Shown: piece after piece, positions 19,646 to 34,560 of the stretch
Layout of the letters: the number at the start of each line of letters is the position of its first letter
How positions within the stretch are numbered: the first letter of the stretch is position 1
Assembly: GCA_964016885.1 (NCBI GenBank)
Contig: OZ024741.1
Span: forward strand, 283,712,001 to 283,776,000
Reading direction: 5' to 3'
Source: Eledone cirrhosa
Lineage: Eukaryota
DNA: 64,000 bases
Program-made: the position numbers and the translations under genes
Notes under the pieces: model-generated
Databases searched by the model: none
Told to the model about the DNA's origin: nothing
What the model saw: only the letters and a program-made list of their open reading frames with translations

Positions 19646-20911
19646 TACCCACTCTACTACTTCAAGTATTGAGTACTTTGGTGCGTTATGGTCCACCTGG
19701 TTCCTTACCACATTTCCTTCGTTATATATATATATATATATATATATATATATATATATATATATATATATCATATGTATAAATCTATATATATATATAT
19801 ATAATATGTATATATATATATATATATATTTATACATATAAAAACCCCCAGTTGATGGATGTGAATCTGAAATATATATGTATATATATATATATATAAT
19901 ATGTATATATATATAATATGTATATATATGTATATATATATATATAATATGTATATATATATATATAATATGTATATATATATATATAATATGTATATAT
20001 ATATAATATGTATATATATAATATGTATATATATATATATAATATGTATATATATATAATATGTATATATATATAATATGTATATGTATATATATGTATA
20101 TATATATATATATGTATATATATATATATATAATATGTATAAATATATATATATATAATATGTATAAATATATATATATATATTTATACATATTATATAT
20201 ATATATATATATTTATACATATATATATATATATATAATATGTATAAATATATATATATATAATATGTATAAATATATATATATATATATATAATATGTA
20301 TAAATATATATATATATATAATATGTATAAATATATATATATATGTAATATGTATAAATATATTTATATATATATATATATATATATATATATATATATA
20401 TATATATATATATATATATATATATATATATATATATATAATATGTATATATATATAATATGTATAAATATATATAATATGTATATATATATAAAATAGG
20501 TATAAATATATATATATATAATATGTATATATATATATATAATATGTATATATATATATATATATATAATATGTATATATATATATATATAAATATATAT
20601 ATATATAATATGTATATATATATATATATATATATAATATGTATATATATATATATATATATATATATATATATATATATATATATATATATATATATAA
20701 TATGTATATATATATATATATATATATATAATATGTATATATATATATATATATATATATACAGTATTTTCCGTTGTGTTGTAATATAAATATTACACAC
20801 AGTAGATTATCAGCTCACGCAGAGTTTGCTCGACGGTTCCAGTTGTAGTTCCAAAAGTAATCCGGAGAAAAATAGAAAGATTTGAATGGATACAGTTTAG
20901 TTGAAAGGAAT

Positions 20912-21031
20912 TTATTGACACGTGTTTCTATAACAGTTACATAACCTAAAACAGCTGCTATCTACAAACTTTTAGTTATGCAGACATTCAATATTTCAAT
21001 GTTATTATTTACTGTCATTTCATCAGAATAA
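20912..21031 (-). ncRNA. Hammerhead with 91-nt stem II (main family)
   Basis: ttatt-CTGATGA-a atgacagt...actgttat a-GAAAC-ACGT-GTC-aataa. Confidence 0.85.
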
Positions 21032-21921
21032 TATTACTGAGGACCTATTTAGTTTTTATAGAGAATATTAGGAGGGAGGGGTGAAGTTGTTAGAAGAATA
21101 GTTGAAGGAGTGGTTTTTCGATAGCAGTGAGAATTCTTGGTGGCAGTGAGTAATTAGATTCCCATCTGTTGTTTTGACATTTTTTATAGAATATATTATT
21201 GGTTATTTTTCTAAATCTATAGAAGGATTAGAGATAGTAAAGATATGCGTGGTTGGTTTTGTGTTTGCACTTAATTAACATTCAGACTTAAATTTTTCTT
21301 TCAAGTGTACGTATCCTTTCACCCACGCATTCACAAACAAATATATTTGCACACCTCTACAAAATACATATACTCACAATTCACATATTCATACTTACAT
21401 ATATATACACATGCATACACATATATATACACACATGTATTCATGTACATACATACGCGCTCATGTGTATACATTTTCATACTCAACTTATCTTTATATA
21501 CACACGTATAGACACACACATATATACATACATACTCTAGTCCATGTGTACACACATACACATACATACACATCCATATACACATATATACATATATATA
21601 TATATATATATATATATATATATATATATATATATATATATATATATATATAAGCACTTTAATACATGAATACACTTACATCTAACTATACACATCAAAC
21701 ATATATATATATTTACTTATTTATATACATTTTCACATATATATACATACTTATGGACGTTTTTAGACACATTCATTATCGCATATTTGTACCTATTCTC
21801 ATCAGCATATCTTTCCATTATTAGTGTGGTAATTTAAGGTTATTAATATATGTTGAGAAGAGATTGTTTTTATATTTTTCTAACTAGATTAAGGTTTATA
21901 TAGTTGGGGGATGTCCCTCTT

Positions 21922-24243
21922 TTATGTAATATTCGGCTTGTAGTGGGAAAAAAGGGTTTTAGTTCTGTGACGGCAGAATAATGTTCGTTCAATTCTGTTA
22001 TTCAGCAGTTTCTTCTTGTGTGTGATTATGTAATAAATCTCAAGATTACACAATTTGCAGAAATTTTGGCTCCTGGAAAAGCTTTGGGTTTTAGCTAATT
22101 TTTCCCATTTTAGGGTAAACTTGTGATCGCTATCCCTGAGCGTCCAAGCTTTTTCTGCTAAAGTTGTTACATTTCTTTGGCTCTGGTGTTTTATTGAGTA
22201 AGAATGCCTATACAATCGAGATTTAAACGATGTTGCCGTTGATCCCACGTAATACCACTCGTTGCCTCCGGATTTAATGGTACACTTATAAATAATATTT
22301 TTTTCCCGGCAGTTATTGCCGAGGGGGCAGTTGTCAGGATAGGTGCAGTTACAGTTGTGTACGTTGGGTTTTCTCTGGAGTAGTATTGCGGACGAACTTA
22401 GGTGTGGTTTATTTATGTTCTGTAGTGTATTGTTTACTGTTTTTTTTGTGTTCTTTGTACTTAAGTTCTTAGTGTTTTCGTTTAACCTTCTAGTATTGAT
22501 CTTTTTTATGTGTTGTTCAAGGTTTAACGCTGTAGAGTATGACAGTCTTATAGTGGTAGGGTTTAGGATTTTGTGGTATTTGTGTGATGTGGGAAAATGT
22601 CTTTTAATTATTTTAAAGAAGAGTACTGGTAAATTTGTACTAATGGAACTATTGTATTCGGGGTTATACCATAAGTACTCTTTGCATCGCTTTCTATTAG
22701 TTTTGTTTGTTGGTTTACTGGTGTGCATACTATGGTAGTAAGTGTGGTTTGGTGTTGTGTTATTATATCTACCTATGTGGGATTTATTTTGGGTGTTTTG
22801 ATTGTTCCCATCTATGTACTCTATTTTGTTGAGGTAGCCTGCTTTACTAAGGGCGTTATCGTAGTACTCGGCGTGTTCCTTAAATACTTGTATGTTAGAA
22901 GATAGACCCGAGATTCTAAGGGAAATATTTTTAGGGATAGATTTAATTATAGAGATGGGGTGGTTAGACCCAACATTTACGTATTTGAGATTTTCATTCA
23001 ATTTATGAAACGGTTTAATCAAACCAGAGTTTAAATTGAGTGTGACATCCAAGAAGTTAACTACTTTAAGGTTGTATTCATATGTTATAGTTAGTCCTAT
23101 TTCGAGTAGTAGTTTTCTTATATCTTTGCGTAGTTTTTCTAGTTTTTGGTTATTAAGGTTTTTAGCTAGGAGGAGAACATCGTCGCGGTATATTCCGCCG
23201 TGGAGATTGCTGAATTTTTCCTGGAGTCTAAAGGCGATAAATAACCCCACAATATCAGTTATTTCCGCCGAATCGTTAGAGCCCATTGTTATGTCAAAGT
23301 TAGAGGGTCTATCTTTACGTACCCAATAACTGTTCTCAAATTTGACTATAGTTTTCCTAGCTTCTAATATAATCTTAATTTCATCGTTTGTAAGGTCAGA
23401 GTTATCCTTAGCAAACTTAATGGCTCTATTCAAAGTTTCAGGTGATATCGATGAGTAATATTCATCGATATCAAACTGGATAAACTTAGATTTATTCTTA
23501 TTACTAATGCTATTAAACCATCTTATTGCTTCTTGGGTCTTCCCCCAGAGTTTAATGTTAACCTTAGCCTTAATTTGGGGGATGATTCTATCTAAGATAT
23601 ATTTGCTTATTTTACCTATATCTGATTTAGAGGGGCAGATTAATCTAATTTTAGGGTCATTATCAAAGTTTACCTTGTGGTCCTTAAGATTGAAGGTGGG
23701 TACCGCCGGTAAGAGTGGTCCTGTCCTATCTTCGATTCCGAGATTTTTCACTATTTCGCATGCCTCATCATTGATGTGCTTAAGGGTTACTTCACTCGTT
23801 TTTCTATATTTTTTATGTAATTCTTTTCGAATGAAGTTGTTGTATGTAGTGCAATCCATAGTGTACAGGTTTGATGTTTTGTCCGCTTTTACTACAATTC
23901 CTTTGGTGTTTTTAAGGTCGTCCAGTAGTTTTTTTATATCTTTCTGTAATTTGCTGTTGGTGTTGCGTCCTTTGAATTTAATTTTAAGGATTAAGTTCAT
24001 AAGGTCCTGCTCAAATGCATCTAATAGTGGGTTGGTGGGTGGGTTTTTACAAGTCCTAAAACCGAATTTGTTGTTTACACCACTTTCTAATGTTGAGTTC
24101 ATACGGCTTCTATCATAGTGGAGCGTTTTCCACCTGACACGTCGAATGAATTCATTAGTTTTTTGAATCATACTCAATAAATATTCCTTTCTACCTTGGG
24201 TTGGTATGTTTTTGAGTGACATATCCAGGTAGTGTTTTTCCAT
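21922..24243 (-). CDS. Intact PLE polyprotein: reverse transcriptase plus GIY-YIG endonuclease (Hydra-clade-like), 773 aa
   Basis: KADKT; FIQFDIDEYYSSI; ITMGSNDS; GIYRDD; VNFLDVTL; SNHP; CNC-x5-CPL-x3-C; IIY..YVG; CKLC; CRH. Confidence 0.96.
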   Translation of the reverse strand: MEKHYLDMSLKNIPTQGRKEYLLSMIQKTNEFIRRVRWKTLHYDRSRMNSTLESGVNNKFGFRTCKNPPTNPLLDAFEQDLMNLILKIKFKGRNTNSKLQKDIKKLLDDLKNTKGIVVKADKTSNLYTMDCTTYNNFIRKELHKKYRKTSEVTLKHINDEACEIVKNLGIEDRTGPLLPAVPTFNLKDHKVNFDNDPKIRLICPSKSDIGKISKYILDRIIPQIKAKVNIKLWGKTQEAIRWFNSISNKNKSKFIQFDIDEYYSSISPETLNRAIKFAKDNSDLTNDEIKIILEARKTIVKFENSYWVRKDRPSNFDITMGSNDSAEITDIVGLFIAFRLQEKFSNLHGGIYRDDVLLLAKNLNNQKLEKLRKDIRKLLLEIGLTITYEYNLKVVNFLDVTLNLNSGLIKPFHKLNENLKYVNVGSNHPISIIKSIPKNISLRISGLSSNIQVFKEHAEYYDNALSKAGYLNKIEYIDGNNQNTQNKSHIGRYNNTTPNHTYYHSMHTSKPTNKTNRKRCKEYLWYNPEYNSSISTNLPVLFFKIIKRHFPTSHKYHKILNPTTIRLSYSTALNLEQHIKKINTRRLNENTKNLSTKNTKKTVNNTLQNINKPHLSSSAILLQRKPNVHNCNCTYPDNCPLGNNCREKNIIYKCTIKSGGNEWYYVGSTATSFKSRLYRHSYSIKHQSQRNVTTLAEKAWTLRDSDHKFTLKWEKLAKTQSFSRSQNFCKLCNLEIYYIITHKKKLLNNRIERTLFCRHRTKTLFSHYKPNIT

Positions 24244-33434: not shown

Positions 33435-34340
33435 AAGAGGGACATCCCCCAACTATATAAACCTTAATCTAGTTAGAAAAATATAAAAACAATCTCTTCT
33501 CAACATATATTAATAACCTTAAATTACCACACTAATAATGGAAAGATATGCTGATGAGAATAGGTACAAATATGCGATAATGAATGTGTCTAAAAACGTC
33601 CATAAGTATGTATATATATGTGAAAATGTATATAAATAAGTAAATATATATATATGTTTGATGTGTATAGTTAGATGTAAGTGTATTCATTTATTAAAGT
33701 GCTTATATATATATATATATATATATATATATATATATATATATATATATATATATATATATATATATATATATATGTATGTATATATGTGTATATGGAT
33801 GTGTATGTATGTGTATGTGTGTACACATGGACTAGAGTATGTATGTATATATGTGTGTGTCTATACGTGTGTATATAAAGATAAGTTGAGTATGAAAATG
33901 TATACACATGAGCGCGTATGTATGTACATGAATACATGTGTGTATATATATGTGTATGCATGTGTATATATATGTAAGTATGAATATGTGAATTGTGAGT
34001 ATATGTATTTTGTAGAGGTGTGCAAATATATTTGTTTGTGAATGCGTGGGTGAAAGGATACGTACACTTGAAAGAAAAATTTAAGTCTGAATGTTAATTA
34101 AGTGCAAACACAAAACCAACCACGCATATCTTTACTATCTCTAATCCTTCTATAGATTTAGAAAAATAACCAATAATATATTCTATAAAAAATGTCAAAA
34201 CAACAGATGGGAATCTAATTACTCACTGCCACCAAGAATTCTTACTGCTATCGAAAAACCACTCCTTCAACTATTCTTCTAACAACTTCACCCCTCCCTC
34301 CTAATATTCTCTATAAAAACTAAATAGGTCCTCAGTAATA

Positions 34341-34460
34341 TTATTCTGATGAAATGACAGTAAATAATAACATTGAAATATTGAATGTCTGCATAACTAA
34401 AAGTTTGTAGATAGCAGCTGTTTTAGGTGATGTAACTGTTATAGAAACACGTGTCAATAA
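34341..34460 (+). ncRNA. Hammerhead with 91-nt stem II
   Basis: Core 34346-34352, GAAA 34444-34447, GUC 34453-34455. Confidence 0.85.
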
Positions 34461-34560
34461 ATTCCTTTCAACTAAACTGTATCCATTCAAATCTTTCTAT
34501 ATATATATATATATATATATATATATATATATATATATATATATATATATATATATATAT

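What the first reader, a model, noticed from the sequence alone, without database searches (positions are those of the whole stretch)
20760..34498. Young, probably active Penelope-like array with an intact RT/GIY-YIG ORF and HHR-delimited 3.55-kb monomers
Seen: about 2.7 tandem units plus a head-to-head inverted unit, near-identical. One ORF is intact, one has a single TAA, one has indels. Each ORF lies between two HHRs, the upstream cut being about 210 nt before the ATG. Known: tandem/inverted integration and pLTRs typify PLEs; DKT and CxC motifs fit the Hydra clade. Inference: read-through plus self-cleavage releases an uncapped unit-length RNA that could circularise and be copied in rolling-circle fashion. 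This is the best local candidate helper for the retrozymes.
Basis: partly seen in the sequence, partly recalled or inferred. Interest (0 to 1): 0.7.

Follow-up and report, generated by a model that had tools for sequence, protein, structure and literature searches.

The report
Jumping gene copied from RNA circle
This is one copy of a recently spreading Penelope-type jumping gene whose insertions are mirror-image pairs of arms that share one template's mutations, so two enzymes likely copied a single, probably circular RNA at both sides of a DNA break, a route that was proposed earlier and is now directly testable.

Summary
This is a Hydra-clade Penelope-like element (PLE) with more than 1,300 exact end junctions in genome G000 and purifying selection on its ORF.

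The family shows more than the window does:
- Insertions are head-to-head arm pairs in (TA)n. One arm ends 45 nt and the other 160 nt past the predicted hammerhead cut (70 of 78 pairs; no same-type pair).
- Both arms carry one haplotype (250 of 260 sites, versus 11% between loci), and so do successive tandem rounds (144 of 150).
- No arm stops at the cut.
- One locus holds six identical 321-nt deletion units on both arms, with no other copy in the assembly.

Best reading: two reverse transcriptases copy one unit-length RNA, likely a circle closed at the hammerhead. This fits Cervera and de la Peña's 2014 proposal better than the multi-copy mRNA scenario of Frangieh 2024. Cleavage, ligation and expression were not observed.

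Earlier scan notes reached the same two-arm circle reading for non-coding retrozymes in this genome.

The parts
20757..20916 (-). Outer end of left arm: bases +1 to +160 past the cut, joined to (TA)n; inferred reverse-transcription start site 1
   Evidence: 991 exact copies of this junction in G000
20917..24452 (-). Unit U1, cut to cut, 3536 nt
21922..24243 (-). Intact 773-aa RT + GIY-YIG-type endonuclease ORF, Hydra clade
20912..21031 (-). Type I hammerhead motif (5-bp stem I, CUGAUGA, 91-nt stem II, GAAA, palindromic CACGUG, UC); predicted cut after 20917
24448..24567 (-). Hammerhead motif upstream of the intact ORF; predicted cut after 24453, 209 nt before the ATG
24413..24447 (-). Constrained non-coding stretch +6 to +40 (inferred cis element just before the +45 start)
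   Evidence: 0 inherited versus 18 post-insertion variants; Fisher p=1.7e-4, post hoc
24453..28010 (-). Unit U2, 3558 nt; ORF with one TAA at 26623-26625; likely a later local duplication
28006..28125 (-). Hammerhead motif; predicted cut after 28011
28011..30490 (-). 5'-truncated unit U3 (positions 1073-3536)
30489..30910 (+). Head of the inverted arm (positions about 3091-3536); joined head to head to U3 with a 2-nt overlap
30820..30915 (+). Hammerhead motif with a 24-nt deletion in stem II; predicted cut after 30910
30911..34455 (+). Inverted whole unit, 3545 nt; ORF from 31120 broken by four indels
34341..34460 (+). Hammerhead motif; predicted cut after 34455
34456..34500 (+). Outer end of right arm: bases +1 to +45, joined to (TA)n; inferred reverse-transcription start site 2
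   Evidence: 1331 exact copies in G000

Best explanation
This is an insertion of an active Hydra-clade PLE family whose two opposed arms and tandem rounds carry one haplotype, likely because two reverse transcriptases primed from both strands of a cut (TA)n target and copied one unit-length RNA, probably a circle made by hammerhead cleavage and ligation. Steps: (1) Inferred: a transcript spanning repeat-ORF-repeat is cut at both hammerheads, likely as a dimer through the palindromic helix III, and the ends are ligated (RtcB is the known candidate for retrozymes). (2) Shown: insertions have one end at +45 and one at +160, both in (TA)n. Inferred from PAc biochemistry: these are two internal start sites. 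(3) Shown: both arms pass the cut without a stop or scar, overlap in what they cover, and share variants. Inferred: one molecule is read twice, with strand displacement. (4) Shown: arms end at scattered places and are mostly joined by a few bases of overlap. (5) Arms longer than one unit rebuild the flanking repeats. (6) Shown: ORF-less deletion units were copied in trans. A minority of templates may be uncut linear precursors.
For: End pairing: 70 of 78 head-to-head pairs are +45/+160, the other 8 have a cut-off or other end, and none is same-type. Arms agree at 250 of 260 polymorphic sites versus 3987 of 36091 between loci, with 54 rare variants shared. Rounds agree at 144 of 150 sites in 52 loci, on both sides of the cut and in the ORF; the control on the smaller set was 328 of 2966. 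In loci with three or more copies, 18 of 19 rare variants are in every copy. The cut junction is exact in 157 of 170 cases and the rest show no added bases at the cut. No arm ends at the cut among 249 crossings. L193 has six identical junctions of a 321-nt unit that lacks CUGAUGA, on both arms, and all six genome-wide matches lie at that locus. L195 has one 377-nt junction in both arms and nowhere else. 41 of 54 arms that cross the cut twice run upstream of +3405, and 21 end in or beyond the upstream ORF. Helix III pairs between two copies at -11.7 kcal/mol, while the monomer fold costs 6.1. The 312-nt retrozyme has the same two-arm build with up to eight rounds, and retrozyme RNAs are known circles (PMC7229834, passages).
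Against: In vitro, PAc needs no hammerhead cleavage, uncut RNA is suggested as the main substrate, and no RNA-seq reads ended at the cut (PMC11167929, parts 1-2 of 4 read). 5' ends pile up at +3405-3435, the hammerhead's 5' edge: 7 of 48 second-round arms against 1.2 expected (P=3e-4) and 6 of 82 first-round arms (P=0.02). That would fit a transcription start on linear uncut RNA. The L193 and L195 junctions are not at the hammerhead cut, so they show repeated copying but not closure at the ribozyme. Constraint on the hammerhead is inconclusive (2 of 78 inherited versus 11 of 129 post-insertion variants, p=0.14). The window's own U2 and U3 share four variants that the first round lacks, so DNA-level duplication also makes tandems. 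One molecule and two sister RNAs from one locus cannot be told apart, except by inference from L193 and L195.
Confidence: 0.6

Rival explanations
1. The template is an uncut linear mRNA with several units read from tandem source loci (the Frangieh 2024 scenario), and units are kept alike by DNA-level conversion or duplication.
For: PAc results in vitro. Pile-up of 5' ends at +3405-3435. One DNA-level duplication in the window. Tandem loci with intact ORFs exist.
Against: Without a copying step at each jump, new variants would show in one round only. Yet 144 of 150 polymorphic sites agree, and five of the six misses lie at A/G runs. 59 rare unshared variants persist, so conversion is not ongoing. 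L193 has no source array in the assembly.
Confidence: 0.13
2. The template is a linear unit-length monomer cut at both hammerheads, and the enzyme jumps precisely from its 5' end to its 3' end (a virtual circle).
For: It explains the shared haplotypes equally well. Near-blunt jump-like junctions occur at B095 and L195.
Against: No arm ends at the cut among 249 crossings, junctions carry no added bases, and the six L193 junctions are identical. End-to-end jumps of R2 and group II intron enzymes usually leave added bases (recalled, not from a call).
Confidence: 0.12
3. A unit-length circle is made without the ribozyme, either as extrachromosomal DNA from recombination between the repeats (then transcribed into identical multimers) or by back-splicing at an AG|GT site inside stem II.
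For: Either route homogenises rounds without a scar. The L193 and L195 junctions are not at the cut. An AG|GT preceded by pyrimidines lies at about +3508 (sequence).
Against: Several hammerhead types with different sequences keep paired stems and palindromic helix III in this window. No recurrent spliced-out segment was noticed in the locus maps (not tested formally).
Confidence: 0.08
4. The inverted arm is made by self-priming or fold-back copying of the first cDNA or of an antisense template (Arkhipova 2013).
For: It predicts shared haplotypes between arms. Proposed in PMC3846280 (passages).
Against: In 18 of 39 complete insertions the +45 arm reaches further 5' than the +160 arm, and a one-round +45 arm lacks +46 to +160, so neither arm can be a copy of the other. 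Arm lengths are not correlated (rho 0.23, p=0.16).
Confidence: 0.03
5. The array is an assembly artefact.
For: The extra unit U2 could be two alleles laid in tandem.
Against: The same asymmetric build occurs at dozens of loci with different flanks. Short-read contigs show (TA)n loose ends at 24293 (X1, X2) and 24408 (X2, X5); one of these runs may be the source sample.
Confidence: 0.03

Closest known systems
Hydra clade of PLEs (Craig et al. 2021, PMC8557442; passages, section 6 and supplement hits read), e.g. Hydra-1_Obim, Hydra-1/2_Amil
   Same: C-terminal endonuclease, RWK, DKT, CxCX5C linker, CxxC and CxH motifs, (TA)n target, hammerhead in the terminal repeat, partial tandems, inverted 5'-truncated copy, tail at one end only.
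   Different: A different family by eye from Hydra-1_Obim (no alignment run). The unit is 3.55 kb where Hydra elements are generally under 3 kb. The tail is 115 nt against the 30-40 nt described for PLEs. Stem II is 91 nt. More than a thousand young copies allow haplotype tests.
PAc, Poseidon element of Anolis (Frangieh et al. 2024, PMC11167929; parts 1-2 of 4 read)
   Same: Two internal start sites downstream of the hammerhead cut, both target strands cut and extended, AT-rich target, reverse transcription passing the cut site.
   Different: Here both starts lie in the 5' UTR and are strictly one per arm. The paper's model is a multi-copy uncut mRNA, while these genomic data point to a single-unit template.
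Circle model for PLEs (Cervera and de la Pena 2014, PMC4209133; passages read)
   Same: It proposes hammerhead cleavage, ligation and more-than-unit reverse transcription as the source of tandems, with dimeric cleavage through palindromic helix III.
   Different: It is offered there as a tentative role without in vivo evidence, and the passages read do not deal with the inverted arm.
Metazoan non-LTR retrozymes (PMC7229834, passages; preprint 10.64898/2026.07.22.740005, parts 1 and 3 of 5)
   Same: Tandem hammerhead units, shown there to form circles with RtcB, and PLEs proposed as helpers.
   Different: Those are non-coding units of 170-400 nt, while this unit encodes its own enzyme. L193 is a retrozyme-sized derivative of it that lacks half of the ribozyme.
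L1 twin priming (recalled, not from a call)
   Same: Both target strands prime, giving a head-to-head inversion joined by microhomology.
   Different: L1 arms cover non-overlapping parts of the RNA. Here the arms overlap and both start at fixed sites.

Membership tests
EN+ Penelope-like element | Single ORF with telomerase-like RT and C-terminal GIY-YIG endonuclease | tested here: met
   773 aa. The model has pLDDT 82 and its top fold hits include TERTs and DRT2 RT. The YYVG..R..H endonuclease core is aligned. Pfam gave no hit, so the endonuclease rests on motifs.
EN+ Penelope-like element | Partial tandems, inverted 5'-truncated copy, tail at one end | tested here: met
Hydra clade | RWK motif and DKT in place of DKG | tested here: met
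   RVRWK and ADKTS; definition
Hydra clade | CxCX5C linker, CxxC and CxH near the conserved E and N | tested here: met
   CNCTYPDNC, CKLC and CRH
Hydra clade | No N-terminal endonuclease, no Naiad CxC domain, no CCHH motif | tested here: met
   The endonuclease is C-terminal and no cysteine pair lies inside the GIY-YIG core (by eye)
Hydra clade | Insertion into (TA)n and a canonical hammerhead | tested here: met
Hydra clade | Placement in an RT tree with named Hydra references | not tested
   Reference proteins were seen only as paper text; motif blocks match by eye
Functional type I hammerhead | Catalytic core and three helices | tested here: met
   helix III is favourable only as a dimer
Functional type I hammerhead | Selective constraint on core and stems | tested here: inconclusive
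   p=0.14
Functional type I hammerhead | Self-cleavage at GUC | not testable with these tools
   needs RNA ends or an in vitro assay
Helper of the 312-nt retrozyme (58163-60575) | Shared terminal sequence or joined copies | tested here: not met
   No BLAST likeness to this PLE. None of 12 retrozyme hits lies within 600 nt of the PLE in 90 loci. Tail about 35 nt versus 115 nt.
Helper of the 312-nt retrozyme (58163-60575) | Same insertion signature and age | tested here: met
   Two arms, two fixed ends, (TA)n target, 97-100% identity for whole units; not specific to this family

The most novel reading that the evidence does not exclude
An autonomous, protein-coding retrotransposon replicates through a ribozyme-closed 3.5-kb circular RNA. 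A pair of its reverse transcriptases reads that one circle in rolling fashion from both strands of the target. This single mechanism yields all the odd PLE features (pseudo-LTRs, inverted copy, tail) and throws off retrozyme-sized circles such as L193.
Probability: 0.5. Interest if true: 0.85.

Novelty: new member of a known kind. Interest (0 to 1): 0.66.

Why it matters
How PLEs make pseudo-LTRs, inverted copies and tails, and what their hammerheads do, is called unclear in Craig 2021. Two published models conflict: a ribozyme-made circle (2014, tentative) and an uncut multi-copy mRNA (2024, in vitro). This young, high-copy family lets genome sequence discriminate between them, and it favours one unit-length template read twice and more than once round. 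It also gives exact start sites, a constrained cis stretch and an intact enzyme for a direct assay. If the circle is confirmed, it links viroid-like RNA circles to an autonomous retrotransposon and shows how retrozymes can be born. Searches of the open library (listings and some passages only) turned up no haplotype evidence of this kind. Subscription journals and unseen supplements may hold it.

Tried and rejected
- Pfam and Rfam at gathering score found nothing for the ORF or the hammerheads.
- No RNA holder was listed, so expression is untested.
- No listed contig bridged the inversion junction; a hole proves nothing.
- The homodimer prediction for residues 1-480 gave no answer.
- An apparent pile-up of arm ends at the cut was an artefact of the reference boundary and vanished on base-level inspection.
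- Rolling circle as the source of the window's third unit was rejected. U2 and U3 share four variants absent from the first round; the two searched genome-wide recur elsewhere only singly, on other haplotypes.
- Pairing of +6..+40 with stem II was no better than shuffles (177 of 500).
- A common hairpin at the four start sites of the PLE and the retrozyme was not clear in 35-nt folds.
- A 2677-nt spacing at L239 was a duplicated short stub, not a deletion unit.
- No RT tree was built.
- A possible barrier for 5' ends at +390-800 was seen but not tested.
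Full report
Observation. The array is as described. Positions are counted from the first base after the predicted GUC cut (+1 = window 24452 on the minus strand). A left arm runs 30490 to 20757 on the minus strand (0.70 unit, two whole units, 160-nt end) and a right arm runs 30489 to 34500 on the plus strand (about 420 nt, one unit, 45-nt end). Both outer ends join (TA)n. ORF 24243-21922 is intact (773 aa), the next has one TAA and the inverted one has four indels. 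Five type I hammerhead motifs sit in register, with a 91-nt stem II and a palindromic helix III. The window has 17 such motifs and 200 shuffles had none. The 209-nt leader after the cut has no ATG, while four ATGs lie inside the hammerhead.

What it is. The protein has 299 relatives at E<=0.001 among 7996 scored candidates, mostly 31-38% identical over nearly the full length. It carries RWK, DKT, CxCX5C, CxxC and CxH, the features Craig et al. 2021 list for the Hydra clade, along with (TA)n targets and hammerheads (passages, section 6, supplement hits). The predicted fold (pLDDT 82) matches telomerase and DRT2 reverse transcriptases best. No tree was built.

The family. G000 (3.0 Gb) gave 3730 candidates, of which 40 were scored, all at 99-100% identity. 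Exact-pattern counts are 991 for the +160 end, 1331 for the +45 end, 3058 across the cut and 194 next to the ATG. I fetched three sets: the first 60 listed +160 ends, 30 loci from the best DNA hits, and 40 loci chosen mostly for holding the ATG region. With the window, that gives 130 loci with alignments. Variants found in three or more loci are 39 synonymous to 18 non-synonymous, against 1409 to 5199 possible. Post-insertion variants are 27 to 59, plus 8 stops. In the two long-copy sets, which are biased towards intact copies, 39 of 74 complete ORFs are intact. Some loci have no difference between arms over 3.1 kb. The family is therefore young and was spread by working enzyme. This locus is not among the youngest, and three variants private to its intact unit occur in none of the other loci.

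Architecture. Eight complex loci and the window were left out. Of 78 head-to-head pairs, 70 have one +45 and one +160 end, 8 have an end that is cut off or different, and none has two ends of one kind. Arms average about 1.2 kb, their lengths are not correlated, and most joins overlap by a few bases. Short-read contigs of coded runs show the same two ends. This matches the two internal start sites and two-strand extension shown for the Anolis element PAc (parts 1-2 of 4 read), with a 115-nt tail. The stretch +6 to +40 has 0 inherited and 18 post-insertion variants (p=1.7e-4, found post hoc), which suggests a cis element.

One template for both arms. The two arms agree at 250 of 260 polymorphic sites, against 3987 of 36091 (11%) between loci, and share 54 rare variants while 175 rare ones are unshared. 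Fold-back copying would also give this. But in 18 of 39 complete insertions the +45 arm reaches further 5' than the +160 arm, so neither can be a copy of the other. That argues against the self-priming idea of PMC3846280 (passages).

One unit for all rounds. In arms longer than a unit, successive rounds agree at 144 of 150 polymorphic sites in 52 loci, in the leader, the ORF and the repeat alike. Five of the six misses lie at A/G runs (four further loci, including the window, were left out). The control on the smaller set was 328 of 2966. In loci with three or more copies, 18 of 19 rare variants are in every copy. On a linear multi-unit mRNA each round would descend from a different unit, and new variants would appear in one round only. 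The data need a step at each jump that makes all rounds from one copy. The junction at the cut is exact in 157 of 170 cases with no added bases, and none of 249 crossings stops there (the nearest stops 3 bases beyond). A ligated circle explains both.

A natural test. Locus L193 (G000:C3, near 218.05 Mb) has proper +45 and +160 ends but is built of a 321-nt unit: +1 to +301 joined to the last 20 bases before the cut. The junction occurs six times, identical, three on each arm, and nowhere else in the assembly. The unit lacks CUGAUGA and the ORF. L195 has a 377-nt unit with one junction per arm and no other copy. The simplest reading is that one small RNA circle was copied in trans by two enzymes. 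These junctions are not at the ribozyme cut, and a source locus missing from this assembly cannot be excluded.

Evidence against. PAc does not need cleavage in vitro, and its authors found no RNA ends at the cut. 5' ends are enriched at the hammerhead's 5' edge, +3405-3435: 7 of 48 second-round arms (1.2 expected) and 6 of 82 first-round arms. A transcription start on uncut RNA, an enzyme pause or microhomology with (TA)n could each cause this. Still, 41 of 54 long arms run past that point. Constraint on the hammerhead is not significant. The window's own third unit is not a rolling-circle product: U2 and U3 share four variants that the first round lacks, which fits a later duplication or two alleles assembled in tandem. 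Cleavage, ligation and expression were not observed.

Retrozyme helper. The 312-nt retrozyme at 58163-60575 is young and forms the same two-armed arrays in (TA)n, with ends near +132 and +168 and up to eight rounds. A PLE-type enzyme is therefore the likely mobiliser (inference). Nothing singles out this family: there is no sequence likeness, no copy lies within 600 nt in 90 loci, and several other Hydra-like ORF fragments lie in the window. The retrozyme's best local match is the hammerhead of another element at 12158-12200 (21 of 26 bases, E=1). One copy of this PLE (B099) is joined to a sequence with a retrozyme-like hammerhead, a single hint.

Comparison and novelty. The element is a new member of the Hydra clade. 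The circle route was proposed as tentative by Cervera and de la Pena 2014 (passages), and PLE help for retrozymes (parts and passages). What the papers read do not give is haplotype evidence that both arms and all rounds of an autonomous PLE come from one unit-length template (searches; listings, open library only). Earlier scan notes made the two-arm circle argument for non-coding retrozymes in this genome; they are unchecked and not independent support. Verdict: real, a known kind of element, with unusually good genomic leverage on an open mechanism. Confidence is 0.6 in the ribozyme-closed circle and higher in a single unit-length template.

Noticed in passing
window 58163-59110 and 59630-60575 (-): Two three-unit arrays of a 312-nt hammerhead retrozyme, duplicated together with their TA-rich flank. 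Elsewhere the family is two-armed, with ends near +132 and +168.
   Followed up: partly
window 11701-12500: A second hammerhead element (about 431-nt period, 2839 candidates in G000), joined to a broken Hydra-like ORF. Hydra-like ORF hits occur in 4 of 30 of its loci.
   Followed up: partly
window 8730-11600, 34565-36390, 48850-50430: A second Hydra-like family with two-armed copies and a possible non-canonical hammerhead core (CAGAAGA in place of CUGANGA).
   Followed up: partly
window 793-909 and 38839-38980: Two more hammerhead motifs with 90- and 105-nt stem II and palindromic helix III, near Hydra-like endonuclease fragments (2-388 and 40452-40850).
   Followed up: no
window 18839-19189: A 351-bp palindrome with a hammerhead motif on each arm, probably a stub insertion of another family.
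   Followed up: no
window 12727-13230 and 14025-14528: A direct repeat, 97.8% alike, each copy with a hammerhead motif (45-nt stem II).
   Followed up: no
window 36661-37068, 55336-55743, 45943-46605, 4456-4612: Further near-perfect palindromes; the first two are copies of one element with an extension on one side.
   Followed up: no
window 17698-18600 (-): Fragment of an ordinary RT (Pfam RVT_1, E=9e-11).
   Followed up: no
window 1128-3481 and 50488-52948: Two copies of a 2.3-kb repeat, about 90% alike, not identified.
   Followed up: no
runs X1, X2, X5, X6: Near-identical element sequence under four organism codes in three studies; in X6 a 423-base piece differs at one base. Close relatives, environmental DNA or horizontal transfer could explain it.
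   Followed up: partly
L099-L100 (B099), about 256 bases into L100: A PLE copy whose 5' end at +65 is joined, in the same sense, to a sequence with a retrozyme-like hammerhead; possibly a template switch.
   Followed up: partly
L013-L072: Seven of 88 first-round arms end at +390 to +600 and none between +160 and +390, a possible barrier near the enzyme's own binding site.
   Followed up: no
L095-L096, L193, L195: Three independent junctions link +301 to +353 with the 3' strand of hammerhead stem II (+3506 to +3517), suggesting a recurrent break or stall there.
   Followed up: partly
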